Below, piece by piece: positions 22,067 through 39,695 of a stretch of DNA of 64,000 bases. The notes beneath the pieces are model-generated. The model saw nothing but the letters and a program-made list of their open reading frames with translations, searched no databases and was not told the origin of the DNA. Position 1 is the first letter of the stretch. Each line of letters opens with the position of its first letter. Origin of the DNA: a virus. Lineage: Duplodnaviria > Caudoviricetes. Both the position numbers and the translations under genes were made by a program. Location: positions 1 through 64,000 of the IMG/VR virus record IMGVR_UViG_3300021256_002372. One strand, 5' to 3'.

Positions 22067-23113
22067 TCAATTACTCTCGTTTATGTATTCGTGAATCTTA
22101 TTGTAGTAGTCTTCAACTGCTGATGCAGCATACTCACGCGCATCTTCTTCACATGCCTGCTCATAATAACCGCAAAAGTCCTCAGTTCCGGTTATGTAAT
22201 CTGCAAATTCGACCTCATATTTCTTTACTCTTCGGTATACTTTAAGATCTCTGTACTGATCATCACAAGAGTTATACATATCTACAAGGCAATGCTGATA
22301 TGCATGATATGCCTCATGACATACGGTATCCACCACTTCACATGGGGCGTCATACATCAGACTTTTAACACTGACTGAGATAGTGTGTGATCTGTCCGAA
22401 TAATTACCAAGAATAGTGTCTCTCTCCATATCTGTAGCCACAACATTCAGCTCATGTGGAAGCCCAAGGTATCTGCATTCAATATTGGCTATGGTTTGTA
22501 GCACATCGAGTTTCTCCTCAAATGTTAGGCTGAACCACTCGCTGTTATCTAGCCTCGATAGGCAATCTATGTTATTGGCTATAGTTGCTTCTTGGCTGAC
22601 ACTCGGTATTGTCGACTTTGCTTGTGAAACACCTGACGTGACCGTAACACTAACACACGGAACAAGCATTAATATTGCCATTCCGAGCGCAAGAAAGGCT
22701 TGGCTTCCCCTTACGAATGTGAACACTCTCTTAGGAATCATCTTGTAAGCTGATACCCCTTCTCGCCTATAAGTAATCAAATAAGTGGCGTATAGTCCAA
22801 CCGAAACACTCAAAAGTGCAACGATAGTGAGAATCAATGATTTCAATATTGGAAAATATGAAACTAAAGTGTATAAGCCATAACCTGCTACAATATTCAT
22901 AACAATACTGACAGTATTCATTCTTGTCTTTTTTTGAGTAGAATAGCCAACTGCCAAACTTACAATGAGTAATAATAGCAGTAGCAACATAGATTTTGCG
23001 AACGAAAGCCCTTCGATACTTCTGAACAGCAATGCCTTATACCAAAACCAAGCGATGAAGTACCCATAAATATTGGTAAAGATAAATCCAGAAGCACTAT
23101 ATGTGTTTTTCAT
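22067..23113 (-). CDS. Polytopic membrane protein with C-terminal HEXXH zinc-peptidase domain
   Basis: About 5 TM helices; CHEAYHAYQH and E.DAR motifs; RBS gaggag. Confidence 0.75.
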   Translation of the reverse strand: MKNTYSASGFIFTNIYGYFIAWFWYKALLFRSIEGLSFAKSMLLLLLLLIVSLAVGYSTQKKTRMNTVSIVMNIVAGYGLYTLVSYFPILKSLILTIVALLSVSVGLYATYLITYRREGVSAYKMIPKRVFTFVRGSQAFLALGMAILMLVPCVSVTVTSGVSQAKSTIPSVSQEATIANNIDCLSRLDNSEWFSLTFEEKLDVLQTIANIECRYLGLPHELNVVATDMERDTILGNYSDRSHTISVSVKSLMYDAPCEVVDTVCHEAYHAYQHCLVDMYNSCDDQYRDLKVYRRVKKYEVEFADYITGTEDFCGYYEQACEEDAREYAASAVEDYYNKIHEYINESN

Positions 23114-23163
23114 AGAAAGCCACTCCTCTTCACACATAGAGTCGAAATCAAACCAGCAGGTCA

Positions 23164-23331
23164 TCAGAGATCATCTGACACACCATATTTCGGATGGCGT
23201 TTATACGCTTTCTTACTTGTATCAGCGATATGAGTAACAGGATTGACCACTTGCCAAGTAGTACGCTTCTTCTTGTTCAGCTCACGCTTCGCTTTTTTGC
23301 TCATCTTTTCATACGGTACAAACTCATTCAT
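23164..23331 (-). CDS. Small basic hypothetical protein
   Basis: FVPYEKMSKKAKRELN...W..NPVT...KAY.R; RBS aaggag; own promoter. Confidence 0.7.
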   Translation of the reverse strand: MNEFVPYEKMSKKAKRELNKKKRTTWQVVNPVTHIADTSKKAYKRHPKYGVSDDL

Positions 23332-23361
23332 ACTTGTCACTCCTTTGTTTTCAATAATTTG

Positions 23362-23412
23362 ATTATACCATACAAAACCTGAATACTCATCATCTATGTC
23401 ATAAACAAAGAT
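23362..23412 (-). promoter_or_regulatory. Regulon promoter A (shared upstream motif + extended -10)
   Basis: ATCTTTGTTTATGACATAGA-25 bp-TATAAT (TGg). Confidence 0.65.
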
Positions 23413-23419
23413 AAAAATT

Positions 23420-23442
23420 GGGCGGCCAGTTCTTGACCGCCC
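23420..23442 (-). terminator. Intrinsic terminator
   Basis: gggcgg/ccgccc stem, T tract on minus strand. Confidence 0.6.
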
Positions 23443-23460
23443 TAACCATATCACCCCCAA

Positions 23461-23922
23461 TTACACCCAGCAGTTCGATCCGCCATCGATGGACCAGTAA
23501 ACGCACTTGCCAGCGTTGGTGAAGTTCCATCCCGGATTCCACGACTTATGGATTCTGACTTTCACCTTATAGGTGCTGTAGCCCTTGGGAAGAGTAAACG
23601 TTCCCCTGGATTTATCATTGTAGGTGCCAATGTATCTGCCATCACCGTACACCTCATAGTCGAACTTGCCGTAGGTCCAGTGTCCGACAACGTCAAAAGT
23701 GCAGATTTTGATTTTGCATTTCTTGTTTGTATTGTTCGAGTGGATAGTTGTCTCTCCTGTCCAGTTATAACCGTTGAAGCACCCCCTCACAACTCCGTTC
23801 GCCGCCTCAGCAACGATAGCTGTGCTGCTGCCGTTGGTAAAGGGGAAAGCCTGTGTTGCGGTTCCCACAGTCAGGGTAAGTGCCATCATAACGCCCATAA
23901 TAATCTTTGTGATTTTTTTCAT
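23461..23922 (-). CDS. Secreted protein (153 aa, beta-rich, basic)
   Basis: Signal peptide MKKITKII...AEA. Confidence 0.75.
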   Translation of the reverse strand: MKKITKIIMGVMMALTLTVGTATQAFPFTNGSSTAIVAEAANGVVRGCFNGYNWTGETTIHSNNTNKKCKIKICTFDVVGHWTYGKFDYEVYGDGRYIGTYNDKSRGTFTLPKGYSTYKVKVRIHKSWNPGWNFTNAGKCVYWSIDGGSNCWV

Positions 23923-23940
23923 AATATCAACCCTTTCATT

Positions 23941-24123
23941 TTATAGCCTTAGATTATTGTCTGCTTGATTGAATGTATTTATCACACAATCATATCTACC
24001 ATCACCCTTTCGAGAGCAGTCCTCTGGTTGTACGGATGTTATCATTCCGTATCTTATGTATAAATCATACCACAATATCAAGTTGGATGCATCATCCATG
24101 TCGTAAAAAAGTTCATTCTTCAT
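23941..24123 (-). CDS. Small hypothetical protein
   Basis: Overlaps upstream gene end and fills the operon. Confidence 0.4.
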   Translation of the reverse strand: MKNELFYDMDDASNLILWYDLYIRYGMITSVQPEDCSRKGDGRYDCVINTFNQADNNLRL

Positions 24124-24310
24124 CAGAGGAGCCAAATAATTCATCAAATTTCGCTTCAAGCTCGGCCTGTATTCTTGCTTCATCGGATTCGCTCGTAATC
24201 TCGCAGGGAACGACCTTGAACATGTTTTTTTTACTCTTATCGTCCCTTATTACCGTCTTACGAAGTTCGTCCACAAACCTCTGATGACGTTTCTTGAAAC
24301 TTATGTTCAT
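24113..24310 (-). CDS. Small hypothetical protein (65 aa)
   Basis: Coupled to the VirD4-like gene; RBS aggag. Confidence 0.55.
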   Translation of the reverse strand: MNISFKKRHQRFVDELRKTVIRDDKSKKNMFKVVPCEITSESDEARIQAELEAKFDELFGSSDEE

Positions 24311-24312
24311 TG

Positions 24313-25575
24313 TTATCTCATCTCCTTCTTTTTATCACCCTGCAGCATCATCAACTCGATATATTTCCTATCATGGAATGTATCATACCGCTCGGTAAAT
24401 ATAGGACGTGATCCACGCCTAAAGCATATAAGAGAGCCAACAGGCTGCCATAATACCTCATCAACAGGAATATTTGCTTTCAGTGATACAAGTTTGGCGG
24501 TTTCATACTCATTACAGCCTAAGAAAATTGTGGTGTCAATATTATTCATTATTGTCTTACTGCCGAATTCACCATATGCCTCAACTAACTGCGATTCGCT
24601 CTGAAGCAAAAGTAAGAAATCCATGTTTGCCTCTCTTACTATGCTTGTGTATTCAGCAAAATCCTTTACCGCGACACCTCCGACAGCAAAGTCATCATAA
24701 CACATGCTTACTCGAACAGGGAGTCTATATCCCGGACTATGCTGCGCCTTGGTAAATAGCGAACGAAATATTTGACCATAGAACAGATTTACAAATGTAT
24801 ATAAAGCTGTATTCATAGCAGATGTGGTGATGAATAAGGCTGTTCGCTCTTCTCCAATCTTCTCAATATCTATGCACTTCTTCTTACTGATTTGGTTTCT
24901 AAGCCCCGATGTGAAGATTGTAGAAAGCATCGTTTGAAGACTTGATATGATACATGAAGCTGTCTTGGTCGAGTCTAAGGTGCTGAATACAAGCCAATTA
25001 TTTGCACAAAAACCGTGGGGGTCTCTTTCAACAATAAGATCGAACTTGTCATCAAGAGTTGTTTCGATATGACTACAACCGGGTTTTATACGAAGAAGGT
25101 CAGCATTCCGCAGCACATCGTCCATTGTAGCATCTTCTTCAAAGATCATCGTCATGCTAATTAAAGCATTTAACAGATTGATGCTAGTCGAGTCCCAATA
25201 GGGATCCGCCTTGGAGGTCGCTTTGCGGCTGTCACTCATTACCAGCGCTGTAGAAAGATGAGCAATATCCTCTGTTGAACAGATATATGCAATCGGATCA
25301 TAACACATCTCGCTTTTTTCAGGCTGTTCAAAATTCATATCAATAACATTATATCCCATCTTCTTATAATAAGGAATAAACTGGTCTGCAACTCGCCGCT
25401 TACTAAGAGAGCAGATTACAGAACTCTCATGTGTATGGAGTAAGAAAGGAACAATTATACTAACACTCTTACCCGCGCCGGATGATCCGATCACAAGGGA
25501 GTTATTGTTCAGCCCAGTCTCATCTGGATTCCTACTGAAGATCGCATCTTTGCCTGCTATCATCTTTTCACTCAT
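24313..25575 (-). CDS. VirD4/TraG-like P-loop ATPase lacking an N-terminal TM anchor
   Basis: N.LVIGSSGAGKS, YDPI, DPYW, DDF Walker B, LQSESQL..YG. Confidence 0.85.
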   Translation of the reverse strand: MSEKMIAGKDAIFSRNPDETGLNNNSLVIGSSGAGKSVSIIVPFLLHTHESSVICSLSKRRVADQFIPYYKKMGYNVIDMNFEQPEKSEMCYDPIAYICSTEDIAHLSTALVMSDSRKATSKADPYWDSTSINLLNALISMTMIFEEDATMDDVLRNADLLRIKPGCSHIETTLDDKFDLIVERDPHGFCANNWLVFSTLDSTKTASCIISSLQTMLSTIFTSGLRNQISKKKCIDIEKIGEERTALFITTSAMNTALYTFVNLFYGQIFRSLFTKAQHSPGYRLPVRVSMCYDDFAVGGVAVKDFAEYTSIVREANMDFLLLLQSESQLVEAYGEFGSKTIMNNIDTTIFLGCNEYETAKLVSLKANIPVDEVLWQPVGSLICFRRGSRPIFTERYDTFHDRKYIELMMLQGDKKKEMR

Positions 25576-26171
25576 TATCGTTCGCCCTTTCTGATAAGAT
25601 CCTTCATATCGGCAATTCCATCTGCCAATCCAAAACTGATGGCTTCTGTTGCATTGAAGTATGTGTCCGTTCGAGTGACCGACTCGATCTCATCTACGCT
25701 CTTGCCGGTACACATAGAGAGAATATCATTAATGACTCTGGATGTCGATATAAGCGAGTCGGAAACTGCTTTGATCATTGAAACATTGCCTTCAATTCTC
25801 GTTGCCGAGACAAGAGGCTGATGAATCATTAGCTCTGCATGCTTAAGCATATAGCGTTTAGAGCCGGCAGAGAATAAGAGGGCTGCCATGCTGAACGCTC
25901 TTGACAGACACCAAGTTCGGATTTCCAACCCTGAGCCCTCCATTGCGTCGAGAATTAATAATCCGGCATCGACTGCTCCACCGTTACTGTTTATCACGAT
26001 GTCAACAGGAAGATTGTGGTCTTCCGCAGCAAGAAACAAAAGCGACTTGCAAGTCTCAACTGCTGTATCCTGTGTGATCTCACCTTCGATAAAGATGATT
26101 CGCTTCGTCAGCAGATTGCATTCAATCGGCATAGTGCTGTAGCCTGTTGCGCTTTTCATAGGAACATTCAT
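25575..26171 (-). CDS. clpP: Accessory ClpP-family serine protease
   Basis: RIIFIEGEI, INSNGG, AFSMAA (Ser), IHQP (His), RTDTYF (Asp), A..FGLAD. Confidence 0.9.
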   Translation of the reverse strand: MNVPMKSATGYSTMPIECNLLTKRIIFIEGEITQDTAVETCKSLLFLAAEDHNLPVDIVINSNGGAVDAGLLILDAMEGSGLEIRTWCLSRAFSMAALLFSAGSKRYMLKHAELMIHQPLVSATRIEGNVSMIKAVSDSLISTSRVINDILSMCTGKSVDEIESVTRTDTYFNATEAISFGLADGIADMKDLIRKGER

Positions 26172-26195
26172 GATCTAGTCCTCCCATTCTTTTTA

Positions 26196-27110
26196 TCAGG
26201 AAACAAGCCTTTCGGCTGTTTCAATCTCACGAGAAATCTCAAGAATACTCTTCAAGGCAGTTTCAGGAGACATCCTTTCTGTACGCTCTATCGCAGTCAT
26301 TTTCCGAATCATATTTGCTATCCTGCAGTCAAGGCAACTCGTCAGCTTATTGATGTCGCAGAGCTCTATGCTGGAGAGCTTGTCTTCAGAAGCTAAGAGA
26401 GGGTTGACTCCTGTAAACAGCCAGCAGATTACTAATCCCATCTGAAAAGCATCTGATTCCATATAGAAGCGGTTCGTCTCCTTTTTTGCATAGGCAACCA
26501 GTTCAGGGGTTCGGTAATGTCTTGGCATCGACGCACTGGCATGAAGTATATCTTCACTCCGTTCCGTATCAGAACAGCAAAGGCTCTTGATAAGACCAAA
26601 ATCACCAAGAACGATTCGTGTTCCGTCAGTGAAAATGTTCTGTGGTTTAATATCTCTATGAACAACACTCTGTTCCTTTAACTGCGATAATGCCATCAAC
26701 AGCATGTGTGTAAACCGAACCTTCTGCTCATACGAAACGACACGAGCAGACATAAAGCTGTCAAGTGTATGCGGATAATACGGAGTCACAACAAAAGAGT
26801 AGCTTCTGTTGGCAATACGCATTTCACCTGAGTCAATATAGGAAAGCAGATACTGAGAAGTTTGGCGCTTGAGAAAAGACTGTTCTCTCTGGAAACGCTT
26901 CATTCTTTTATCAAGAAGATTATACTGGATTTTGAGTGCGTAGTATGAATGGTCGTGCAGTAAGTCATTGCGTTCCACTTTGAACACAGCACCATTCTTG
27001 CCGGTATTGATAAAACCGATGATCCGGTATGAAGAACCGCTATTCGTACTCAGAACATCACCAACCTTCAGAGCGTGTCCGAAGATATTGTTCGTGTTAG
27101 CACTTTTCAT
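26196..27110 (-). CDS. Hanks-type Ser/Thr protein kinase (cytoplasmic)
   Basis: GKNGAVF, ALK, HRDIKPQN, DFG, YRTPE. Confidence 0.9.
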   Translation of the reverse strand: MKSANTNNIFGHALKVGDVLSTNSGSSYRIIGFINTGKNGAVFKVERNDLLHDHSYYALKIQYNLLDKRMKRFQREQSFLKRQTSQYLLSYIDSGEMRIANRSYSFVVTPYYPHTLDSFMSARVVSYEQKVRFTHMLLMALSQLKEQSVVHRDIKPQNIFTDGTRIVLGDFGLIKSLCCSDTERSEDILHASASMPRHYRTPELVAYAKKETNRFYMESDAFQMGLVICWLFTGVNPLLASEDKLSSIELCDINKLTSCLDCRIANMIRKMTAIERTERMSPETALKSILEISREIETAERLVS

Positions 27111-27117
27111 GATTTCC

Positions 27118-28158
27118 CTACCTTTCTTTAGACATACTTATTTTTTCAAGCAAAGAATGTATTTCTTCTTCAGTGATATGTCCCGTAGTTGCAATTTGGC
27201 TTACGCAGCACGCCGCAACAATGTTCCCGAAGATGAGTGAAGATTCTTCGGAGATTCCAGCCAGTTTCGCTGATATATATCCTGAAGTAAACGCATCACC
27301 TGCGCCACGCGAGTCGGTTTCGCTATGATGGCATATGGCGGGTGCACCCAAGAGCTCTCCTCCAATTCCAGCTACTGTTCCAGCCTCACCTAGCGTAACG
27401 ATTACAGGAGCAGACGAATTCCTTGACATCTCTGCACAAAAGACCGGGAGAAGTCTCTTGCTGAGCGAGAACGCTCTCATAAACTCATTTTCATTGCATT
27501 TCCGGATAGCTCTATTATCAACATCAGCAATATGCTTGCGAGAGTCGATATAGATAAGCAGCTCAGGATACTTGTCTGCAAGTACAGCAATATGCTGTCT
27601 CATACGATGTGTAACGACACCGCAGTCCACAGAATCAAGCTGGTCAAGGAAGATAATTGCATCAGGTTTTTCTAATTCTACAAGATCATCTATAGCCAAG
27701 ATGAGTTTTTCTTCATCACAAACGCTTGTACGCTGAAAATTCTGCACAGATGCTTCGCCATCTTCGACATAGCCGTTTCCGCAGTCTCTCATAATCATGG
27801 TGTAACTGGGAGTGCTAAAGTGCTCCAGTACAAACAGATTATCTGTGTTGATACCGAGCTTACGGAGATCATGCTCTAAATTGAATCCATCGCCGTCATC
27901 ACCGCGATACCCTACGGCATAGATGCTACCAATTCCAAGATTGGCAAGATTCTTTGCCACAGTGCCAGCAGCACCAGGACTCGTTCTTGTAGCTCGGATT
28001 ACATATGCGGGTTTGCCTGTATACAGCGATGCACCAGTGTCAGAATCCTTCATATATACATACTTGTCCAGGAAATAGTCACCAACGACAACGACCTTCT
28101 TGCCTGCGTTTGATGAATTGATGTTCTTGCAGATATCGAGCATTTCTGTATACTTCAT
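27118..28158 (-). CDS. PfkB-family carbohydrate kinase (HldE/RfaE kinase-like)
   Basis: VVGDYFLDKY, PGAAGTVA.NL, TLGEAG, DSRGAGDAF. Confidence 0.88.
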   Translation of the reverse strand: MKYTEMLDICKNINSSNAGKKVVVVGDYFLDKYVYMKDSDTGASLYTGKPAYVIRATRTSPGAAGTVAKNLANLGIGSIYAVGYRGDDGDGFNLEHDLRKLGINTDNLFVLEHFSTPSYTMIMRDCGNGYVEDGEASVQNFQRTSVCDEEKLILAIDDLVELEKPDAIIFLDQLDSVDCGVVTHRMRQHIAVLADKYPELLIYIDSRKHIADVDNRAIRKCNENEFMRAFSLSKRLLPVFCAEMSRNSSAPVIVTLGEAGTVAGIGGELLGAPAICHHSETDSRGAGDAFTSGYISAKLAGISEESSLIFGNIVAACCVSQIATTGHITEEEIHSLLEKISMSKER

Positions 28159-28202
28159 AAAGCAATCCTCCTTATTCTATGCCGACTTACGATTACTTGT
28201 GG

Positions 28203-28535
28203 TTATGCTATCTCGTAATCGTACTCCTCAACTGCCTTGATTTTGCGCTCACTTCTCTTTCTTTTCCTTGAAGCTGTAAGGTCGATTCCGTTTTCCTCCG
28301 ACATGTACTTGAACATTCGGAGGATTCTTTCGTTGAGTTTCTGCTGACGAAAGACCGCAGTCTTGCTGTATGCATCTTCCATTCTTCTGCCAGTATGGTA
28401 AAGAGCATAGATTTCTTTGGAGTAGTAGTTCGTTGTAAACAGGTACAGATCGTACTCGTTGTTGATGCGCAGGTAGAACTCCATCTTCCCGTGTTCATTG
28501 TTCTGGCAGAATACCATAGCGTTCATCTTTTTCAT
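28203..28535 (-). CDS. Hypothetical protein (110 aa)
   Basis: RBS aggaggag; first gene after promoter C. Confidence 0.75.
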   Translation of the reverse strand: MKKMNAMVFCQNNEHGKMEFYLRINNEYDLYLFTTNYYSKEIYALYHTGRRMEDAYSKTAVFRQQKLNERILRMFKYMSEENGIDLTASRKRKRSERKIKAVEEYDYEIA

Positions 28536-28586: not shown

Positions 28587-28637
28587 ATTAAACCACTTTT
28601 TCGCTTTGTTCTCAATTTCTATATAGTATAAAAAGAT
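28587..28637 (-). promoter_or_regulatory. Regulon promoter C
   Basis: ATCTTTTTATACTATATAGA-25 bp-TTTAAT (TGg); -35 TTGAGA. Confidence 0.6.
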
Positions 28638-28638
28638 G

Positions 28639-28682
28639 AAAAGCACAGACACGGGTTATTACTGCCCTCTGTCTGTGCTTTT
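28639..28682. terminator. Intrinsic terminator
   Basis: aaaagcacagac/gtctgtgctttt. Confidence 0.7.
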
Positions 28683-29996: not shown

Positions 29997-30007
29997 AATT
30001 TACCTCC

Positions 30008-30775: not shown

Positions 30776-30871
30776 ACTTCACACCTCCATTTTGTTTTAC
30801 AGAGCATCATTCGTCATATTCTCTACGGGGGTTCGATTCTCTTGATAACAGTGGGCATAGTAACTTCTCCT

Positions 30872-31738: not shown

Positions 31739-31751
31739 AAGAACTCTCCTT

Positions 31752-32933: not shown

Positions 32934-32982
32934 GTGTGCTCCTTTCCTGGAGACGCTGAAGCGCCTCCCTAATAATTGGCTG

Positions 32983-34209
32983 TTAGTTCCAAATGTTATT
33001 AGCCTGCTCTGAATTCAGAGCAATAATCACCACCTTCCTATTAGTAGCTGCGATAGGCTCAACAAGCTGTCCGTTCTCGATGTCATTCGTAAAGAACGGG
33101 TTTGCAGGGTCATAACCGAATCCTTTGATCCTAATGTCTGTAGTCACTCCCGCATCTCTTAACAGTCGCTCAATCGCTCGTCCTCTTTCCTCAGAGAGAG
33201 TAACCGATGATTCTGCCTCACCGTATGATGCTGTAGAGCAAACGAGCAGAAGATCAATGTGGTTGGTTTCTACAGTATCTGCGAAGGAAGCTATTTTCTC
33301 TCTTGCTACGGACTCATCCTTGATTTCCGCAGTCCCAGCTTTGAAGGCAATGTCCTCTTCACCGATCGTAACCTCAAAGTCAGCAGGGAGAGTATCAGGG
33401 ACATTTTCGAGGGTGATTTCTCGGATACTGCTTCCGTCATCGCCAATAGCAACGGGAGTGACGTTCGGCGCTGATTCAAAGACTGATACCGAATCAGGGA
33501 GATAGTAATTCATGCTAAAACTGCCACCGCCTGTCTCGACAATACTTTGCCAGAGCTCGGTAAGAAGTCGCTCTTCCTTGTCTGTAAGTGTTTCCTGATT
33601 TCCCGCCGTCTTCGCCATGTAGAACTGAACTGAACACCCAGAAAGATCTGGAATCGCATATGAGGTCTTCAGGTCTTCCACAGTTGCAGCAACGTCCAGC
33701 CGGTCGAGCGAAGACAACTCGGTCATATCAAGCTTGCCCGCGGTCGAAAGACCATTGGTGTATACGATGATGGTAGGAGAGTCTTTTCCGGCCATATCCT
33801 TTGCGGCAAGATTCAGCGCTTTCAACAGATCAACCTCATCTGTCTTAGGTGTCCAAGTAGTAATACTCTCAGATACTTCGACCGCCTTGCTGTTGACTCG
33901 GCGATTATAGTTACCTGACGAGAGGTTCTTTCCATCAATGAAGATGGAATCATGATACCCGATGAACGGATCACCGTCTGCGATGATATAGCTGAAGTAC
34001 CCGTTTGACTTGCAGGCATCTGCGATAGCAGGCTGAATCTCCGCCATGTCAAGGCATACGGAATTGGAATTGGATGCATTCACGACAGCAACATTGGCAG
34101 GATACTCTGCATCCGTTATTGTTGTGTCGCCACACCCACAAAGTGACAGTCCCAGCAGTGTTGTCCCTGTAATGCACAGCATTGCTTTGATAGTATTGAT
34201 ATTTTTCAT
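32983..34209 (-). CDS. Lipoprotein with vWA-like N-domain and OmpA/MotB-like peptidoglycan-binding C-domain
   Basis: Lipobox LCGC; DLLKAL, YTNGL (MIDAS-like); F..GTAE, LSEERG, NRKV. Confidence 0.8.
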   Translation of the reverse strand: MKNINTIKAMLCITGTTLLGLSLCGCGDTTITDAEYPANVAVVNASNSNSVCLDMAEIQPAIADACKSNGYFSYIIADGDPFIGYHDSIFIDGKNLSSGNYNRRVNSKAVEVSESITTWTPKTDEVDLLKALNLAAKDMAGKDSPTIIVYTNGLSTAGKLDMTELSSLDRLDVAATVEDLKTSYAIPDLSGCSVQFYMAKTAGNQETLTDKEERLLTELWQSIVETGGGSFSMNYYLPDSVSVFESAPNVTPVAIGDDGSSIREITLENVPDTLPADFEVTIGEEDIAFKAGTAEIKDESVAREKIASFADTVETNHIDLLLVCSTASYGEAESSVTLSEERGRAIERLLRDAGVTTDIRIKGFGYDPANPFFTNDIENGQLVEPIAATNRKVVIIALNSEQANNIWN

Positions 34210-34254: not shown

Positions 34255-34305
34255 ATCATAGCAGATAATTCTGAAATTGGATACTTCTATGTCATACAAA
34301 AAGAT
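34255..34305 (-). promoter_or_regulatory. Regulon promoter B
   Basis: ATCTTTTTGTATGACATAGA-25 bp-TATGAT (TGc). Confidence 0.65.
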
Positions 34306-34348
34306 ATTAATGCGGCAGCCATAGCAGTTCTACAACTGCCGCTCAGTA

Positions 34349-35161
34349 TCATTCCTCCTCTTCGCAAGTATCTTTGTCATCCTCATCATCCACAATGGGT
34401 GAGGGCTGCAGGCTATCAAGGACATGGCTCGGAAGTACAGCCTTGGAGAGTTCCTTTGCCGACTCGCTGTCGCCGAGTGCTGATGCAAACTTGTTCCTTG
34501 CCTCTCCTTTAGCTCGAACCGCATATGCTTTGATCAGCTCAATAGTAGCTAAATACTCATCATGATCCAGTTTTTTAAGATCGATACTCTCTCCCTGACT
34601 GAGTTCCAGCTCCCTTCCCCGTGCGCGGAGAGGAATAAGGATCTGCTCGTTGACATATGCGGCATTACGCTTGTCCCAGTGCGACTTCTGAATAGAAAGG
34701 AACAGCATGGCCAATGTAGAAGCAATAGGAATGCTGCCGAGAATCACATTAATCATGGTAGAAGAACTTGAGGACAGCTGAACAACCGTATTGCTCGTAG
34801 ATACATCACCTGTGCTGATTCTGAATGCGACCGACAATGCCGCTACAAGAGCGATAATTCCCGCAAGTGCGATACCGAAGATGATTGTTCTCTTCTTCTT
34901 CGTCATATACTCAAGCGTGGCGGGAAGCCACTGCGAGTAGAGATCGAGGACTGCAACGATGCCAAAAGAAGTAATCAGGGAAACAAGCATGTTTCCGTTC
35001 AGCACAGCATCATAAAGAGACCACAGCGCTACGAAGTCAATGGCTGTTCCAAGTACGACAATGAAGGTATAAGCGAATGCCTTGCAATAGAAAGGCGTCC
35101 CAGCCATGTACTTGTTAATTTTGTTAATGCGCTCATTTGCGCAGTTTCTTGCGTTTTTCAT
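34349..35161 (-). CDS. Four-TM membrane protein with helical C-terminus
   Basis: Hydrophobic segments; operonic. Confidence 0.75.
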   Translation of the reverse strand: MKNARNCANERINKINKYMAGTPFYCKAFAYTFIVVLGTAIDFVALWSLYDAVLNGNMLVSLITSFGIVAVLDLYSQWLPATLEYMTKKKRTIIFGIALAGIIALVAALSVAFRISTGDVSTSNTVVQLSSSSSTMINVILGSIPIASTLAMLFLSIQKSHWDKRNAAYVNEQILIPLRARGRELELSQGESIDLKKLDHDEYLATIELIKAYAVRAKGEARNKFASALGDSESAKELSKAVLPSHVLDSLQPSPIVDDEDDKDTCEEEE

Positions 35162-35163
35162 CG

Positions 35164-35580
35164 TTAATGATCCTCCTTCAATTCATTGTTGAGTTCTTCT
35201 GTTTCGCGCTCAAGAAGTTCAATGACCTCTCGGAGCTGATACAGATGAGCCTCTTTGGTAGTGGCGATTTCCATAAGAGAATGCTGGTGCCTTACACGCA
35301 TAAGCCTTATCTTACGCAGAGCGATGTGTGCCTCTGCATCAATAATCGAGTCAAGAACATCACCGTTCTGCTTTCCATCGATATCGATGCTGTTGATCGC
35401 CTCCTGAATTGTTGCCTGGAAGCTAGCAAAGAAGTCGGCATATTCATCTGGTATGTGGTATGCAGACTGCGACCACGAGCTATTGTTGTCAAGCCAGTCA
35501 ATATATGCATATCTCTTATGCGATCTAGCGTCGAAGTCGTGGCGCTGATCATCGATCTTCTCTCTTTTCTTGCTACGCAT
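35164..35580 (-). CDS. Coiled-coil hypothetical protein
   Basis: ATG 35580 after RBS aggaggg; helical heptads. Confidence 0.7.
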   Translation of the reverse strand: MRSKKREKIDDQRHDFDARSHKRYAYIDWLDNNSSWSQSAYHIPDEYADFFASFQATIQEAINSIDIDGKQNGDVLDSIIDAEAHIALRKIRLMRVRHQHSLMEIATTKEAHLYQLREVIELLERETEELNNELKEDH

Positions 35581-35581
35581 C

Positions 35582-36163
35582 TTATTCACCCTCCTTATCT
35601 GTGATTCCTGCAAATTCCTTCGCCTTTGCATGGATTGCATCATCGATAACAGCGTTCGTGGATTGGTATGCAGCGTAAGCGCTGTTCTGCTCTACAGAAT
35701 ACAGTGCCGTCAAAATCGCCTCGGCTATCGGTTTCTTGGAAAAACCGTGGGCATATGCAATTGTTTGCGCTTTCAGCTTATCCACATAGGGCAGTAATGA
35801 TTCTCTCGCCTTAACCGCTTCCTTGCGAATCGAGCCGTCAAGTGAGATCAGCTTTGCTCTGCGCTCCTCCAAGAGCTTTCTCGCTCTTTTCTGCCCCATG
35901 CTTTTCCCGTTTGGCGATTCAGCATCATCAAGATTACTCATGATGATCTGCGCCTCGCTCCGGTACTGTTCAGTACTTTCTTCGAGTGCCTTCATCATCA
36001 GCGCCGCGTAGTCGGTAAATGCTGCGATGCGCCTTGCGATGAAGGCGGCATCCTCAACCTCTCCCTTGTTGCGCTTGAACCAGCGGTCAAGCACCCCTGC
36101 CAGATAGCAGAAGAACAGGACAGAGTTGCGAAATCTTGGTTTCTTATGCTTTTTAGTTTTCAT
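35582..36163 (-). CDS. Coiled-coil hypothetical protein
   Basis: RBS ggagg; first gene after promoter D. Confidence 0.7.
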   Translation of the reverse strand: MKTKKHKKPRFRNSVLFFCYLAGVLDRWFKRNKGEVEDAAFIARRIAAFTDYAALMMKALEESTEQYRSEAQIIMSNLDDAESPNGKSMGQKRARKLLEERRAKLISLDGSIRKEAVKARESLLPYVDKLKAQTIAYAHGFSKKPIAEAILTALYSVEQNSAYAAYQSTNAVIDDAIHAKAKEFAGITDKEGE

Positions 36164-36215: not shown

Positions 36216-36266
36216 ATTATAAAGGATAGGAAAACAAAAATCAAAGAGCTTATAATACAAAAAGAT
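36216..36266 (-). promoter_or_regulatory. Regulon promoter D
   Basis: ATCTTTTTGTATTATAAGCT-25 bp-TATAAT; -35 TTGATT. Confidence 0.6.
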
Positions 36267-36273
36267 AAAAAAA

Positions 36274-36298
36274 GAGACCTGTCATTACAACAGGTCTC
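36274..36298 (-). terminator. Terminator after HD gene
   Basis: gagacctgt/acaggtctc + T tract. Confidence 0.7.
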
Positions 36299-36305
36299 GA
36301 ACAAG

Positions 36306-36995
36306 TTATAGTTCATGAAGTATTCGCTCAATTTCAGTAAGTTTTTTCAGCTTATGGGCTTTGGTGTCAATAATATTTCCGCCCATATACACATTATCAG
36401 ATTGTGCCATAACATCAGCTTCGCATAGTATCAAAAGATCCTTCCATATATTTATTCCATGTGATGAGGTAGGAAGATGTAGAGCGTTACGCTCAATGTG
36501 GTTGGCGATATTGTCGGTTGATATTTCAACAAGATATGGGTTTTCCTTATCATAAGGTTCATCAGGCAAAACATACGATATGAAATCATCATGATGCTCG
36601 ATATAGAAGCTGATAAGTGCTACCTCTGTTTTGCCGAAGCCTTGACACGGTAGGATTTGCTCTACAAGCTCTGCTGATTTCTTCGCATGATGATAGAAAA
36701 CAAGCCGTCCCTCTTTTTCTGTAGCAACATATGGTTTTCCTATATCATGATAGAGTGCAGCAACCTTCAAAATATCTGCAAAGGTCTTTACATCATCTAT
36801 TCTTGACAGAACCCCACTCACTGTCCGAAGTGAGTGTTCCATCAAGTCATAACAATGGTGCGGATTATTCTGCTTATATTCAACCATATTAGCGGCATCT
36901 ATTCCCAAGAGGATGCCCACCATGCGTTTATGCATATGAAGCCAATTATCCAAGGGAAAGTCTAACGAAAGAAACAGGTCTTCTTTACCAATCAT
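36306..36995 (-). CDS. HD-domain phosphohydrolase (CCA-adding/polyA-polymerase HD type)
   Basis: HH..DL.EH, LYHDIGKP, HAKKS, EHHD, EAD. Confidence 0.85.
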   Translation of the reverse strand: MIGKEDLFLSLDFPLDNWLHMHKRMVGILLGIDAANMVEYKQNNPHHCYDLMEHSLRTVSGVLSRIDDVKTFADILKVAALYHDIGKPYVATEKEGRLVFYHHAKKSAELVEQILPCQGFGKTEVALISFYIEHHDDFISYVLPDEPYDKENPYLVEISTDNIANHIERNALHLPTSSHGINIWKDLLILCEADVMAQSDNVYMGGNIIDTKAHKLKKLTEIERILHEL

Positions 36996-37001
36996 ATCGG
37001 A

Positions 37002-39695
37002 TCACCTGTCTTTCTCACGATTCCTAAAGAGCTCATTTTGCTTTTCGATTCTCTCCATTAGTTCCTTATAGATGAAATGATTCTTGTCAACGATACGAAT
37101 ATATGGTCCATAGCTCATTAATCGAATAAGAACATCGATCTCATCATATTTATGATAGTAGAGCGTAAATCGATACAGTTTTGTTTTAGGGTTTATCAGT
37201 TCACAGCGCTTCCGCCAAGGAGCAAATTCATTCAATAATCTGTCTGGAATATTCTTAGTGTCAATAAATTCAACTGTTATTTGTTTACTTGTATTTTGAA
37301 GAAAATCCGATAGTATTTTCTGATAGTCTTCTGGGCTAAAGGTGCTGTCACAGGGGGTGATGCCCGTTATTCCGTCTATATTCATTATACGAACACGTTT
37401 TGAAGCGTCATCTACAACATATAGCCTGAAACGATCATCGCGCTTTGAGTATTCAATATGAAGAGGACAGTATGTTCCTTTATATTTTCTCCCTTTTCCG
37501 TCCGTATATCTGATTTGCAAACGAACACCCTTATGTAGCGCAGAAATAAGTGCTTGAAAAAATTCAGCATTGGGTTTATGACCTTTAGAATGATACCGAT
37601 CAAATACTACAATATCTGATACATTTATGGGTTTGATACTATCTGGTATCAAAGCAAGAATCTTATTTATAGTATCTGAAGACAGAAACAGATTCATTTT
37701 ATCGTCATTCAGAATAGTACATAACCATCGAAGCTCCCAGGCTGTAAGTGGAATTACATCAAAAAACAAATCTGGTTCCATTTTTTGAACAGCCTTATAT
37801 TTCATGTGATATACATAATCTTTTTTATCTTCAGGCGCGCCCTCGACCCATGTATCGTATTCCATATATCCGCACTTGATAAATAGAAGGCGATTTAATG
37901 CGGATAGTAGATTGTATTTGCTTTTAGAACTTACAAATGAAAGTCTTGTGTGTAAACCTATTTCTTGTTCTCGCTTTTTGTAACATGACTCAATACATTC
38001 TTTAAGTGCATCAGCAGATAAACAATCAGAGTGATTTTTGCCTGATTCATATAGAGATGATAAGACATCACCGAATAGCATAAAATAAACTCCAAAGAAT
38101 GGGTTGAAAAGAGAATCGCTGATGCTTTCTTTGATTCGCGTAAAGGATGTTCCTTTTGGAATAAACCAATTAGAATTAAATGACGTATCAGGCTTTAAAT
38201 CTTTGAAATGACTATCAAGTTCCTGATATTCATTTACTTCATCAGATAAATGGAATGCGTCTGTATCTATTCCGGAACACTCTACAATTCTAGAATAGAA
38301 GCTTCTGATCCATGGCCGCATTTCCCTTGGGTCTGTCACCTTAATTGAGAAAACAATTCTATCTTTTTGGATAGTGATTGTACCATGTCTTTTTTCATGA
38401 TTCAACCTATTTATTATATAGTATTCCGAACCATCTGGATTATATTGAATGACAAGCCTTACCTCTTTGAGAGGTACAGGACTTTGCGCATTATTCTCCT
38501 GTCTGTCAGTTGTTGAGACTCCCCAAGAATAACGAATACCTGTAAGAGCATTTGATATTTCTTCTTTAATTTGTGAATTCTTTAATGAGATATCTTCTCC
38601 GTTCATTTTTATGTTATCGATAAGTTCAAGAGCAGTAATCAGATCAAGCCGAATGTTAGAGTAACTATGGTTATGAGGTGCATAAAAAGAGAGGTATTGC
38701 CGTCCGTTTGTTTGACTCGCTCGTATTTGTAAAGGAAAACATATAAGATGTTGCTCTTCACCTGACATTGGGTTGGACTGTGTGATTTTGCACCACAGCT
38801 TATCCTCCATTGCCTTTAATAGGTCAATTATAATATAGTCATTAAGCGATTGAGCGAAATACTCATGTTTAAATCTGAATATACTTCTATCAGCTTTATG
38901 CGCACGAGATAAGAAATATGTTCCGTATTCGCCAAGCACGAAAAATCTGGAAAAGAAATCTATCGCATCAAAGAACAAATCGGCAGCATCTCCGCATTCA
39001 GAGATGATATACTGAAGTGTAATCTTGCTAAGTTTCCACTTGACATTTCGCTTGTCAGACGAGACCTCTCTTAGTAAATGAAGATTCTCTCTTGGAGTTA
39101 GATACTTTCTAACTATCTGATCTTCTTCAAGAAAGCCCTTAGATACAGGCGCACAGAATGCTGCAATTTGTTTATATGTCAGTTCTCGGCGTTCGTAGTT
39201 TTCAAGAAAGCTGTCAAGTAAAGAAGTGATGCTATGCGATATCCCATCTGAAATCTTGCGTTCTTCTGAGATTATTTCTTCAAATCGATCTTTATCAATA
39301 ATTTTCAAAGCTGGCAATGAATCTTCACCTACAGAGAAGAAGTTCTCTGCAAGTTCATATTTCTCACTAAGCGCTAATACAGTATTAAAAAAAATAACCA
39401 GATCAGCTTTAGTATACATTGAAAAGCGATAAACTCTGTGAAACGGATTGCACTGCTGTGACTGCGAATCAGCTGAAATAAATGCAACCTTACTTCTTTC
39501 GGTTGACCATTGAAAATACTGATCTTGACGAAGAATATTTGATAATCTCACCCAGTCTTCATCAAGTGTCTTACGGGTTCCTGAAAGCGTAGAATAATTC
39601 ATAAACCCATATGTATAGTAGTTGCGGAGTGGATTTCTGAATTTTTCGATAAATTTGCTTTTGATCATCTCTTCATGTGTTTGATTTGTCGGCAT
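37002..39695 (-). CDS. Double-WYL-domain transcriptional regulator (fused, PafBC-like architecture)
   Basis: WYL1: FPLQIR....GRQYL..Y..IRLDLI, WCX: DPREMRPWIRSF; WYL2: PLHIEYSKRDDRFRL, WCX: LIRLMSYGPYI; start ATG 39695. Confidence 0.85.
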   Translation of the reverse strand: MPTNQTHEEMIKSKFIEKFRNPLRNYYTYGFMNYSTLSGTRKTLDEDWVRLSNILRQDQYFQWSTERSKVAFISADSQSQQCNPFHRVYRFSMYTKADLVIFFNTVLALSEKYELAENFFSVGEDSLPALKIIDKDRFEEIISEERKISDGISHSITSLLDSFLENYERRELTYKQIAAFCAPVSKGFLEEDQIVRKYLTPRENLHLLREVSSDKRNVKWKLSKITLQYIISECGDAADLFFDAIDFFSRFFVLGEYGTYFLSRAHKADRSIFRFKHEYFAQSLNDYIIIDLLKAMEDKLWCKITQSNPMSGEEQHLICFPLQIRASQTNGRQYLSFYAPHNHSYSNIRLDLITALELIDNIKMNGEDISLKNSQIKEEISNALTGIRYSWGVSTTDRQENNAQSPVPLKEVRLVIQYNPDGSEYYIINRLNHEKRHGTITIQKDRIVFSIKVTDPREMRPWIRSFYSRIVECSGIDTDAFHLSDEVNEYQELDSHFKDLKPDTSFNSNWFIPKGTSFTRIKESISDSLFNPFFGVYFMLFGDVLSSLYESGKNHSDCLSADALKECIESCYKKREQEIGLHTRLSFVSSKSKYNLLSALNRLLFIKCGYMEYDTWVEGAPEDKKDYVYHMKYKAVQKMEPDLFFDVIPLTAWELRWLCTILNDDKMNLFLSSDTINKILALIPDSIKPINVSDIVVFDRYHSKGHKPNAEFFQALISALHKGVRLQIRYTDGKGRKYKGTYCPLHIEYSKRDDRFRLYVVDDASKRVRIMNIDGITGITPCDSTFSPEDYQKILSDFLQNTSKQITVEFIDTKNIPDRLLNEFAPWRKRCELINPKTKLYRFTLYYHKYDEIDVLIRLMSYGPYIRIVDKNHFIYKELMERIEKQNELFRNREKDR

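What the first reader, a model, noticed from the sequence alone, without database searches (positions are those of the whole stretch)
22067..39695. Four promoters share one motif at identical spacing: an 18-gene regulon next to a double-WYL regulator
Seen (minus strand): ATCTTTGTTTATGACATAGA (23412-23393), ATCTTTTTATACTATATAGA (28637-28618), ATCTTTTTGTATGACATAGA (34305-34286) and ATCTTTTTGTATTATAAGCT (36266-36247); consensus ATCTTTKTDTAYKAYA, pseudo-palindromic (TCT...AGA). Each lies exactly 25 bp upstream of a -10 box (TATAAT, TTTAAT, TATGAT, TATAAT; three with extended TG), right after a terminator-like hairpin and in front of an operon. Two have poor -35 boxes. Known: tandem or heterodimeric WYL proteins (PafBC) and DriD are activators triggered by single-stranded nucleic acid. 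Inference: the fused WYL-WYL protein (37002-39695) switches on this whole uncharacterised block on phage infection, DNA damage or conjugation. I know of no description of this system.
Basis: partly seen in the sequence, partly recalled or inferred. Interest (0 to 1): 0.85.

Follow-up and report, generated by a model that had tools for sequence, protein, structure and literature searches.

The report
Shared promoter element of defence regulon
Four neighbouring operons of protease, nuclease, kinase and ATPase genes share one promoter element at a fixed distance from the -10 box, and this design recurs wherever a large two-WYL regulator is encoded beside a giant STAND protein or a type III CRISPR system, so it is probably an immune alarm that switches effector genes on.

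Summary
Four minus-strand sites (23412, 28637, 34305, 36266) each carry the 20-nt element, then exactly 25 nt, then a -10 hexamer. Each follows a strong hairpin and precedes an operon. No other such site exists in the 125.5-kb record.

The adjacent 897-aa protein is a fused tandem wHTH-WYL-WCX protein. Its best structural match is the naturally fused PafBC (6SJ9), followed by DriD, BrxR and CapW.

In 80 metagenome loci that encode relatives (27-89% identity), a related element (consensus AACTTTTTyTTCCGATAnnGAAaTGA) occurs 1-6 times per locus. It lies almost only downstream of the regulator gene, on the same strand, with the same 20+25-nt spacing to the -10. It is about 150-fold denser there than in regulator-free genomes of the same order.

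Upstream of the regulator lies either a giant STAND NTPase (as here), type III CRISPR-Cas genes, or other genes. Downstream the recurrent genes are an HD gene and a ClpP / VirD4-like ATPase pair.

The best reading is a DriD-like activator that drives inducible immune-effector operons. Binding, activation and the trigger are inferred, not shown. I found no published description. The scan earlier noted a similar four-promoter design with a different palindrome and a ClpP/VirD4-like pair in another genome (e1-4172294).

The parts
36247..36266 (-). P4 upstream element (ATCTTTTTGTATTATAAGCT). The -10 TATAAT is at 36216-36221 and a -35-like TTGATT is present.
   Evidence: A near-identical site with the same spacing is at L055:1507.
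34286..34305 (-). P3 upstream element (ATCTTTTTGTATGACATAGA). The -10 TATGAT is at 34255-34260, preceded by TGc. No recognisable -35.
28618..28637 (-). P2 upstream element (ATCTTTTTATACTATATAGA). The -10 TTTAAT is at 28587-28592, preceded by TGg. -35-like TTGAGA at 17 nt.
   Evidence: The orthologous promoter at L008:20429 has the same 25-nt gap and the same TTTAAT.
23393..23412 (-). P1 upstream element (ATCTTTGTTTATGACATAGA). The -10 TATAAT is at 23362-23367, preceded by TGg. No recognisable -35.
36274..36298 (-). Terminator hairpin plus T-run that ends the regulator operon, directly before P4.
34312..34342 (-). Hairpin before P3 (13-bp stem, no T-run).
28641..28680 (-). Hairpin before P2 (dG -20.6 kcal/mol).
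23420..23442 (-). Terminator hairpin before P1.
37002..39695 (-). 897-aa fused tandem wHTH-WYL-WCX protein ('W919'), the proposed regulator. Unit 2 covers about residues 535-892 and unit 1 about 156-474. It also has a family-specific N-terminal part of about 150 aa.
36306..36995 (-). 229-aa HD/HDIG phosphohydrolase, the last gene of the regulator operon. Its nearest solved relative is the HD domain of an A-adding (CCA-type) enzyme.
   Evidence: It follows the regulator gene in 27-29 related loci.
39766..48612 (-). 2948-aa giant protein with an nSTAND1 NTPase domain (Walker A GPSRIGKT at residue 2179) and a C-terminal RNPSAH (HEPN-like Rx4H, 39880-39897). Proposed sensor.
   Evidence: Homologues lie upstream of the regulator in 15-17 loci.
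48609..49115 (-). SpoVG-family gene, the first gene of the sensor/regulator operon.
   Evidence: Present upstream in 6-7 related loci.
34349..36163 (-). P4 operon with 3 genes: weak L7Ae-like 193 aa, 159 aa, 270 aa.
28707..34209 (-). P3 operon with 5 genes: OmpA-like 408 aa, 393 aa, M48 peptidase, Endonuclease_NS_2, TrwB/HerA-like ATPase.
23461..28535 (-). P2 operon with 7 genes: 110 aa, PfkB kinase, Ser/Thr protein kinase, ClpP, soluble VirD4-like ATPase, 80 aa, 153 aa.
22067..23331 (-). P1 operon with 2 genes: 55 aa and a 365-aa protein with a weak SprT-like match.
   Evidence: The SprT-like gene follows ClpP and VirD4-like in 8-9 loci.

Best explanation
The four sites are operator-promoters of one regulon. 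Each is a housekeeping-sigma promoter with a good -10 (three with the TGn extension) and a weak or absent -35. Each depends on a roughly 27-nt upstream element that spans about -57 to -31 if transcription starts about 7 nt after the -10. I propose that the 897-aa fused tandem wHTH-WYL-WCX protein binds this element.

That protein is made from a separate, terminator-insulated operon: SpoVG, giant STAND NTPase, regulator, HD. When its WYL domains bind a ligand, it helps RNA polymerase onto the promoters, as DriD does. This switches on four operons (17 genes) of likely immune effectors: ClpP with a VirD4-like ATPase, M48 and SprT-like proteases, a nuclease, two kinases, a TrwB/HerA-like ATPase and envelope proteins. 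The hairpin before every promoter blocks read-through, so the effectors stay off until induced.

Shown here: the sites, their spacing and hairpins; the protein's fold; the family-wide association of the element with the regulator gene, including strand, position and spacing; and the alternative upstream partners (STAND or type III CRISPR).

Inferred: that this protein is the binder, that it activates, that the ligand comes from the upstream sensor, that the HD enzyme removes the signal, and that the block is anti-phage or anti-plasmid.
For: (1) Fold. The AlphaFold model has pLDDT 84.5 and pTM 0.88. The best Foldseek hit is naturally fused PafBC 6SJ9 (E 3.6e-15), then PafBC-RNAP, DriD, BrxR and CapW. 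VIA-align gives Z 11.9 over residues 277-892 for PafBC, Z 9.8 over 535-892 for full-length DriD, and Z about 11 over 700-875 for BrxR/CapW. The PADLOC CRISPR-associated WYL model matches at E 5e-18 in two stretches.

(2) Association. A 27-nt PWM scan of 80 related loci gives 90 unique hits. 74 lie on the regulator's strand downstream of it, and 66 of those have a -10-like hexamer at exactly +45. Only 4 lie upstream on that strand and 10 on the other strand, with 584 kb of upstream and 516 kb of downstream sequence. 43 of 66 loci with at least 1.5 kb of downstream sequence have 1-6 sites. The first site lies 57-210 nt after the regulator gene, or about 535-830 nt after it when the HD gene intervenes.

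(3) Specificity. AACTTWTTNTTCSGATA with up to 1 mismatch gives 32 unique downstream sites in 1.24 Mb of loci. It gives 4 in 9.7 Mb of five regulator-free genomes of the same order, none with a -10 at +45. A 26-nt family pattern has 0 hits in viral contigs.

(4) Variants follow the regulator tree. The clade window+L005+L008 (support 100) shares A[AT]CTT..TAYKAYAT, while other clades have TTCCGATA-type 3' halves. The 5' half AACTTTTT is kept throughout.

(5) Promoter logic. The consensus -35 position keeps only TGA, followed by a 17-nt spacer and TATaAT. DriD sites are likewise at a fixed distance from the -10 over a missing -35 (PMC13004042).

(6) No other DNA-binding regulator or sigma factor was seen among the conserved neighbours.
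Against: There is no direct evidence of binding, of transcription start sites or of induction. Three of the four window promoters have an extended -10 (TGn), which can work without a -35, so they may have activator-independent basal activity. The loci were collected by searching with the regulator, so any factor inherited together with it would show the same association. The variant-by-clade pattern rests on only two or three independent changes. About a third of the loci with downstream sequence have no PWM hit; some carry variant sites, while others show none in the sequence held. In L005 the gap to the -10 is 27 nt, not 25. The closest structural relatives include repressors (BrxR, CapW). 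The first wHTH (about residues 156-222) is read from secondary structure only, and the N-terminal part modelled alone is poor (pLDDT 54).
Confidence: 0.65

Rival explanations
1. The same protein binds the same element but acts as a repressor, like BrxR or CapW. It would keep the effector operons off and release them when its WYL domains bind ligand.
For: BrxR and CapW, both repressors of defence operons, are among the closest structures (Z about 11). Three window promoters have TGn-extended -10 boxes that could fire without an activator. Toxic effectors need a tight off state.
Against: The element lies upstream of and only partly over the -35 position, not over the -10 or the start site. Its distance to the -10 is fixed to the base in 66 of 74 sites. 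An activator that touches RNA polymerase needs such phasing; a repressor does not. The -35 position is degenerate across the family. The regulator is not autoregulated from such a site: only 4 of 90 hits are upstream sites. BrxR and CapW act at their own promoters.
Confidence: 0.12
2. The element is real but is read by something else. Candidates are the RNA polymerase alpha subunit (an UP element, which also occupies -57 to -38), the giant STAND protein, SpoVG, or a host regulator. The tandem-WYL protein would then have other targets.
For: The T-rich 5' half (AACTTTTT at about -57 to -50) resembles the distal UP-element half (my recollection of the Estrem et al. consensus, not tested here). 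Some STAND proteins are transcription activators (MalT, AfsR; AfsR is mentioned in PMC11804915). The loci were selected through the regulator, so co-inherited factors cannot be separated from it.
Against: The near-invariant C3 and the G+C-containing 3' half (TTCCGATAC) do not fit an UP element. The element is about 150 times rarer in regulator-free genomes of the same order. It is present in loci with type III CRISPR genes instead of STAND and without SpoVG, for example L031-L037, L049 and L084. The regulator is therefore the only constant DNA-binding partner seen.
Confidence: 0.15
3. The similarity is chance, or generic AT-rich promoter and terminator sequence without a specific function.
For: Isolated matches to the 20-mer do occur in very large collections (23 in 2.9 million viral contigs). 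The T-run of the preceding terminators adds to the T-richness just upstream.
Against: There are four copies in 13 kb and none elsewhere in 125 kb. All have the same base-exact spacing to a -10. The element and spacing are conserved in loci whose regulator is only 27-52% identical. The strand and position bias is strong. The spacers between the element and the -10 are not conserved, so these are not copies of a repeat.
Confidence: 0.02

Closest known systems
DriD of Caulobacter crescentus (homodimeric wHTH-WYL-WCX activator; PDB 8TP8, 9PFQ, 9PFV; PMC13004042, PMC10853764)
   Same: Same domain order. Full-length DriD superposes on residues 535-892 (Z 9.8). Its target sites sit at a fixed distance from the -10, at or next to a missing -35, at several promoters of one regulon.
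   Different: DriD is a homodimer of about 325 aa with a palindromic site. It serves a DNA-damage regulon in an alphaproteobacterium and its ligand is ssDNA. Here one 897-aa chain carries two unlike units plus an extra N-terminal part. The site is asymmetric and longer (about 27 nt). The genes controlled look like immune effectors. Sequence identity is 12-14%.
PafBC of Actinobacteria, including the naturally fused Arthrobacter aurescens protein (PDB 6SJ9, 9FND; PMC11804915)
   Same: Best structural match overall (Foldseek E 3.6e-15; Z 11.9 over 277-892). Two wHTH-WYL-WCX units act as a pseudo-heterodimer, fused in one chain in 6SJ9. It activates many promoters that lack a normal -35.
   Different: PafBC reads a motif at -26 with one HTH while the other HTH contacts sigma domain 4 ('sigma adaptation'). 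Here the element ends 25 nt before the -10 and reaches to about -57. PafBC is actinobacterial, linked to the Pup-proteasome locus and controls DNA repair. Identity is 10-14%, and this protein is about 250 aa longer.
BrxR and CapW (WYL repressors of BREX and CBASS; PDB 7QFZ, 7T8K, 7TB5, 7TB6, 9C5G; PMC9122601, PMC9122588, PMC11662680)
   Same: WYL-WCX fold (Z about 11 over 700-875). WYL regulators encoded beside immune systems and defence islands.
   Different: They are small homodimeric repressors that act at the promoter of their own or the adjacent operon. No multi-operon regulon with fixed promoter phasing is described for them.
CRISPR-associated WYL proteins (Makarova et al. 2014, cited in PMC11229360) and transcription outputs of type III CRISPR signalling (Csa3; CalpL-CalpT-CalpS)
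   Same: Relatives of this protein lie directly after type III cas genes (Cas10, RAMPs, Csm6, CARF-like) in at least 17 loci. The PADLOC 'CAS-associated WYL' model matches. The shared idea is that immune sensing is relayed to transcription.
   Different: The published survey set WYL factors aside 'for a future study'. I found no target promoters or regulon described. Csa3 uses a CARF domain and CalpS is a sigma factor. In this window there is no CRISPR system; the partner is a giant STAND NTPase.
Earlier scan finding e1-4172294 (another genome, Lachnospiraceae)
   Same: Four dispersed promoters with one element at a fixed distance from a -10-like hexamer, which control among others a VirD4-like ATPase/ClpP pair.
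   Different: That element is a different palindrome (TTTCCGT-N7-ACGGAAA, 15 nt from the -10) and its regulator was not identified. I did not re-examine that DNA.

Membership tests
wHTH-WYL-WCX transcription factors (PafBC/DriD/BrxR/CapW superfamily) | WYL (Sm-like beta-barrel) domain followed by a WCX domain | tested here: met
   Two such modules, at about 286-474 and 710-868, in a confident model. BrxR, CapW and DriD C-domains align at Z 9.8-11.7 over 700-883. The PADLOC WYL model matches at E 5e-18 in 2 stretches. Pfam WYL alone is below its cut-off (20.9 vs 21.8 bits).
wHTH-WYL-WCX transcription factors (PafBC/DriD/BrxR/CapW superfamily) | N-terminal winged helix-turn-helix DNA-binding domain in each unit | tested here: inconclusive
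   Unit 2: full-length DriD (chain residues 4-326, including its wHTH) aligns to 535-892. Unit 1: only a helix-helix-helix-strand-strand pattern at about 156-222. The N-terminal part folded alone was too poor to search (pLDDT 54).
wHTH-WYL-WCX transcription factors (PafBC/DriD/BrxR/CapW superfamily) | Dimeric or pseudo-dimeric arrangement of two units | tested here: met
   Two units in one chain. Foldseek aligns 775 columns to the naturally fused PafBC 6SJ9. Split two-gene forms (about 430 + 310 aa, adjacent) occur in 45 of 401 genomes of one order.
wHTH-WYL-WCX transcription factors (PafBC/DriD/BrxR/CapW superfamily) | Sequence-specific binding to promoter DNA, and ligand (ssDNA or other nucleic acid/nucleotide) binding by the WYL domain | not testable with these tools
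   Only the association of the element with the gene family is shown. WYL-core residues are conserved in both units (GRQYL; KRDDxFRL).
PafBC proper (actinobacterial DNA-damage activator) | Promoter motif at -26 read by one HTH, with sigma adaptation replacing the -35 | tested here: not met
   The element here ends 25 nt upstream of the -10 and spans about -57 to -31. The PafBC motif position is taken from PMC11804915.
PafBC proper (actinobacterial DNA-damage activator) | Close sequence kinship and pafA/proteasome or DNA-repair gene context | tested here: not met
   Identity to 6SJ9 is 10-14%. The context is STAND or type III CRISPR upstream and ClpP/VirD4-like effectors downstream.
DriD-type activated promoters | Activator site at one fixed distance from the -10, over or next to a degenerate -35, at several promoters | tested here: met
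   4 of 4 window sites and 66 of 74 family sites have the -10 at exactly +45 from the start of the element. Only TGA is kept at the -35 position. The DriD description is from PMC13004042.
DriD-type activated promoters | Transcription depends on the activator plus its ligand | not testable with these tools
   The RNA contigs held cannot show starts or induction.
Type III CRISPR-Cas accessory module | Encoded within or next to a type III cas operon | tested here: not met
   There are no cas genes in this window. The feature is met for relatives: at least 17 of 61 loci with at least 3 kb of upstream sequence, for example L005, L031-L037 and L084.
Conjugative type IV secretion system (because of the VirD4/TrwB-like genes) | Coupling protein together with VirB4-type ATPase, channel and pilus genes, and a membrane anchor | tested here: not met
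   No other T4SS family appears in the block. The 420-aa VirD4-like protein scores below the NCBIfam cut-off (208.6 vs 250 bits). It is paired with ClpP in 27-32 loci.

The most novel reading that the evidence does not exclude
The tandem-WYL protein plus its HD partner is a portable 'signal-to-transcription' output module. Two unrelated immune sensors use it: type III CRISPR-Cas complexes and giant STAND (HEPN-like) NTPases. The WYL domains would sense a sensor-made product, such as a cyclic oligoadenylate-type nucleotide or RNA fragments with 2',3'-cyclic phosphate ends, and the HD enzyme would remove it. The output would be de novo expression of a whole arsenal. Its conserved core, ClpP with a soluble VirD4-like ATPase and a SprT-like protease, would be a new ATP-driven protease that attacks protein-DNA complexes of phages or plasmids.
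Probability: 0.3. Interest if true: 0.85.

Novelty: new variant of a known kind. Interest (0 to 1): 0.66.

Why it matters
Known WYL regulators of immune systems (BrxR, CapW) are small repressors of single operons. Known WYL activators (PafBC, DriD) serve DNA repair. This case is a distinct, fairly large family: 133 representatives at 50% clustering with E of 1e-30 or better. It consists of fused two-unit WYL proteins from gut and rumen Firmicutes, and it comes with a ready-made, easily recognised promoter class.

That gives three things. First, it allows prediction of which uncharacterised genes are the output of a type III CRISPR or giant STAND sensor, up to six operons per locus. Second, it gives a testable case of immunity that works by inducing effectors rather than by activating pre-made ones. 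Third, it gives a handle (promoter-reporter fusions) for finding the ligand of CRISPR-associated WYL domains, which has been an open question since they were predicted in 2014. The recurrent ClpP/VirD4-like pair is also a candidate new effector machine.

Tried and rejected
- Near-identical DNA in plasmid and phage collections: none.
- Relatives of the regulator in viral contigs: none besides the window's own record.
Contexts are therefore limited to 10-kb flanks from the search for related loci, and the most distal promoter (the P1 equivalent) could rarely be reached.
- tRNA and Rfam searches of the window and related loci: nothing.
- The N-terminal 290 aa folded alone gave a poor model (pLDDT 54), so it was not searched.
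- ESM Atlas gave no usable lead for the N-terminal part or for the 801-aa upstream protein of some loci. That 801-aa protein is not related to the giant STAND.
- PDB sequence search found nothing for the giant protein or the L7Ae-like protein.
- No PWM hits near the split two-gene homologues, but only about 1.5 kb of flank was held, so this shows nothing.
- RNA: four metatranscriptome runs from three studies hold short contigs (90-99% alike) over parts of the effector operons (26-36 kb). One contig bridges P3. Contigs give no starts, strand or level. The lack of cover over the regulator and STAND genes is not evidence.
- I considered an alternative sigma factor. Reading GAAAC as an ECF-type -35 would put it about 21 nt from the -10, which is too far; the -10 is of the housekeeping type; and no sigma gene is among the conserved neighbours.
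- I considered a repeat or mobile element. The spacers and flanks are not conserved.
- No complex prediction was run, because the tool does not take DNA.

Full report
1. THE OBSERVATION

When the four regions are aligned, each 20-mer is followed by exactly 25 nt and then TATAAT, TTTAAT, TATGAT or TATAAT. P1-P3 carry TGn directly before the -10.

A stable hairpin ends 4-7 nt before each element (dG -16.1 to -21.3 kcal/mol, z -4.5 to -5.3). The hairpins before P1 and P4 also pass a strict stem-plus-T-run terminator scan.

A plain sigma-70 scan lists only P4 (TTGATT-17-TATAAT). P2 has TTGAGA at 17 nt. P1 and P3 have nothing recognisable at the -35 position.

- The window is the first 64 kb of a 125,539-bp IMG/VR record. 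A mismatch scan of the whole record finds no further comparable site.
- The same degenerate 20-mer gives 23 isolated single hits in 2.9 million viral contigs. One has TAnnnT at +45 and none lies near related genes.

I count 17 ORFs in the four operons (3 + 5 + 7 + 2), not 18.

2. THE GENES

Pfam, NCBIfam and PADLOC scans give two blocks.

The upstream operon contains:
- SpoVG.
- A 2948-aa protein with an nSTAND1 NTPase domain (Walker A at residue 2179) and a C-terminal RNPSAH, which is a HEPN-like Rx4H motif seen in the sequence only.
- The 897-aa protein.
- An HD/HDIG protein whose nearest solved relative is the HD domain of an A-adding (CCA-type) enzyme (E 2.6e-10).
- A terminator at the end.

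The four motif-led operons contain:
- P4: a weak L7Ae-like protein and two unknowns.
- P3: an OmpA-like protein, a 393-aa unknown, an M48 peptidase, an Endonuclease_NS_2 protein and a TrwB/HerA-like ATPase.
- P2: a 110-aa protein, a PfkB kinase, a Ser/Thr kinase (best PADLOC matches PD-T4-6, MkoA, mad6), ClpP, a soluble VirD4-like ATPase and two small proteins.
- P1: a 55-aa protein and a weak SprT-like protein.

Further upstream lie a type III restriction-modification pair, a DUF4268 protein and an AAA_13 ATPase. The setting is a defence island on a mobile element. No known defence system in PADLOC covers the ensemble.

3. THE REGULATOR

Pfam sees only a sub-threshold WYL match. With 21 homologues the AlphaFold model is confident (pLDDT 84.5, pTM 0.88).

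- Foldseek's best hit is the naturally fused PafBC of Arthrobacter aurescens (6SJ9, E 3.6e-15, 775 columns). Next come PafBC on RNA polymerase, DriD, BrxR and CapW.
- VIA-align gives Z 11.9 over residues 277-892 for PafBC, Z 9.8 over 535-892 for full-length DriD, and Z about 11 over 700-875 for BrxR/CapW.

The 'double WYL' reading is therefore right: two wHTH-(helical bundle)-WYL-WCX units in one chain. There is also a family-specific N-terminal part of about 150 aa, which I could not assign.

The family is moderately large and almost entirely from metagenomes. There are 36 clusters at 90% identity. There are 133 representatives at 50% clustering with E of 1e-30 or better.

In 45 of 401 genomes of the order that holds locus L005, the two units are separate adjacent genes, like pafB and pafC.

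4. THE ELEMENT IS A FAMILY TRAIT

The metagenome scan returned 80 loci with relatives of 27-89% identity.

Close relatives keep the window's version and spacing:
- L055:1507, where the regulator is 89% identical.
- L008:12554 and L008:20429, where it is 49% identical. The sequence is AACTTTTTTTAYKAYAT, followed by 25 nt and then TATAAT or TTTAAT.

Pairwise comparison of intergenic regions within distant loci turned up a related element. A scan with its consensus showed it 2-6 times per locus.

An iterated 27-nt PWM gave 90 unique hits:
- 74 are on the regulator's strand and downstream of it. Of these, 66 have a -10-like hexamer at exactly +45.
- 4 are upstream on that strand.
- 10 are on the other strand, mostly low-scoring and without a -10.
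- The sequence searched was 584 kb upstream and 516 kb downstream.

The consensus of 71 sites is T-AACTTTTTtTTCcGATAnnGAAaTGAa, then 17 nt, then TATaAT. Only TGA survives at the -35 position.

43 of 66 loci with at least 1.5 kb of downstream sequence have one or more hits. The first hit lies 57-210 nt after the regulator gene, or about 535-830 nt after it when the HD gene intervenes. Several 'no-hit' loci carry variant sites with the same 5' half and spacing.

AACTTWTTNTTCSGATA with up to 1 mismatch occurs 32 times (unique contexts) downstream of the regulator in 1.24 Mb of loci. It occurs 4 times in 9.7 Mb of five regulator-free genomes of the same order, and none of those has a -10 at +45. 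This is roughly a 150-fold difference in density.

On a tree of 56 regulators, the window groups with L005 and L008 (support 100). These three share the TAYKAYAT 3' half, while other clades have TTCCGATA-type 3' halves. The 5' half is kept throughout. This is what one expects if one conserved and one diverging DNA-reading head of an asymmetric protein read the two halves. It rests on few independent changes.

5. WHAT SURROUNDS THE REGULATOR ELSEWHERE

tblastn searches and clustering of all neighbours, with Pfam on cluster representatives, show a modular layout.

Downstream, the recurrent genes are:
- HD (27-29 loci).
- ClpP (27-31 loci) next to the VirD4-like ATPase (32 loci).
- The SprT-like protein (8-9 loci).
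- A YbjN-like 234-aa protein (13 loci).
- A 98-aa protein (13 loci).
- The remainder varies from locus to locus.

Upstream, among 61 loci with at least 3 kb of sequence:
- 17 have type III CRISPR-Cas genes (Cas10 palm domain, RAMPs, Csm6, a CARF-like protein).
- 15 have a giant STAND homologue.
- 7 have a Card1-like nuclease set.
- 7 have an unrelated 801-aa protein.
- 15 have something else.

L005, from a rumen Clostridiales genome, has Cas10-Csm3-Csm4-Csm5-Csm6-Cas6, then the regulator, HD, a terminator, and a related promoter. L084 has type III genes, then the regulator, HD, and four element-type promoters that include the one before ClpP/VirD4-like.

The regulator is thus the constant link between interchangeable sensors and interchangeable effector operons. 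It is rarely preceded by its own element.

6. HOW IT PROBABLY WORKS

The published picture for DriD is a target site at one fixed distance from the -10, over the place of a missing -35, at all promoters of the regulon (PMC13004042). That matches this case. PafBC differs: it reads a -26 motif with one HTH and touches sigma domain 4 with the other (PMC11804915).

If transcription starts about 7 nt after the -10, the element spans about -57 to -31. Its pseudo-symmetric part (TTCnGATAnnGAA, or TATGACATA in the window) is then centred near -42 to -44. To my knowledge that is the classical position of activators that overlap the -35.

My reading is as follows (confidence about 0.65):
- The sensor/regulator operon is expressed on its own.
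- The hairpins insulate each effector operon.
- A ligand on the WYL domains makes the protein recruit RNA polymerase to P1-P4.
- The HD enzyme may clear the signal.

The rivals are:
- The same protein acts as a repressor (0.12).
- Another reader of the element, such as the alpha subunit, STAND, SpoVG or a host factor (0.15).
- Chance (0.02).

The TGn-extended -10 boxes of P1-P3 are the main point against strict activator dependence.

7. KNOWN OR NEW

WYL regulators next to defence systems, WYL activators, and WYL proteins near CRISPR loci are all known (PMC9122601, PMC9122588, PMC11662680; Makarova 2014 as cited). The 2024 survey of type III loci explicitly left WYL factors for later study. 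Three full-text searches found no description of this fused family, its promoter class or the ClpP/VirD4-like pairing.

I therefore class it as a new variant of a known kind. It fails the membership tests for PafBC proper (motif position, kinship, context). It meets the structural tests for the wHTH-WYL-WCX superfamily and the promoter-architecture test for 'works like DriD'.

I did not re-examine that DNA.

8. LIMITS

- There is no binding, start-site or induction data.
- RNA contigs only show that parts of the effector operons of close relatives occur in gut and bovine metatranscriptome assemblies.
- The loci were ascertained through the regulator itself.

Noticed in passing
L090-L102 (genomes G024-G395), e.g. 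L091 = G040:C1:1377263-1380952: In 45 of 401 genomes of one Clostridia order, the two halves of the regulator occur as two adjacent genes (about 420-470 aa and 305-330 aa), like pafB/pafC. The fused full-length form was found in only one of these genomes. What these pairs regulate is unknown.
   Followed up: partly
L021:14756-14850; also L019:13720-13815, L020:13272-13365, L014:14808-14900, L024:14833-14925, L072:597-737 (minus strand): A conserved structured 5' leader of about 90 nt lies directly after one element-type promoter in distant loci. It has a nearly invariant first hairpin (GTTGGTGGG...TTCATCAAC) and a second hairpin with 2-3 compensatory pair changes. It is not a tRNA and has no Rfam match. 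A second leader type (GTACTTCAGAGATGAACGTACCGCCTGGTGG) follows the first promoter in L051, L060, L065, L074, L076 and L084. Neither type is present in the window.
   Followed up: partly
window 39880-39897 (minus strand), residue 2906 of the 2948-aa protein: RNPSAH, an Rx4H motif of the HEPN kind, lies 40 residues from the C-terminus of the giant STAND protein. No profile or PDB sequence match supports a HEPN fold.
   Followed up: partly
G001:C27:2917-5130 (L087-L089): The rumen genome that holds L005 has a second, shorter paralogue of the regulator (751-aa open frame) on another contig.
   Followed up: no
L006 and L007, about 10430: The closest metagenome relatives with upstream context (68% identical, SpoVG and STAND upstream) change frame after about residue 144 of the regulator. 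This is either a broken gene or an assembly error.
   Followed up: no
window 36213: Contigs of two metatranscriptome runs from one study match the P4 operon up to 36213, three bases below the -10 of P4. They then continue with unrelated sequence. The relative they come from therefore has a different upstream region (table 7).
   Followed up: no
window 11056-11071 (plus strand): ATGTTTTTGAATGACA has 2 mismatches to the 16-nt core. It lies inside the ORF 9502-11985, on the other strand, in a low-G+C stretch. There is no -10 at the right distance, so it is probably chance.
   Followed up: partly
window 49948-58900: Upstream of the system lie a DUF4268 protein, a type III restriction-modification pair (Res helicase 50922-53570, Mod methylase 53582-55156), an XRE-type HTH protein and an AAA_13 ATPase. 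This is a dense defence island.
   Followed up: no
L043:7376-9781 and 17 other loci: An 801-aa protein without any family match takes the place of the STAND gene directly upstream of the regulator in some loci. It is unrelated to the giant STAND.
   Followed up: partly
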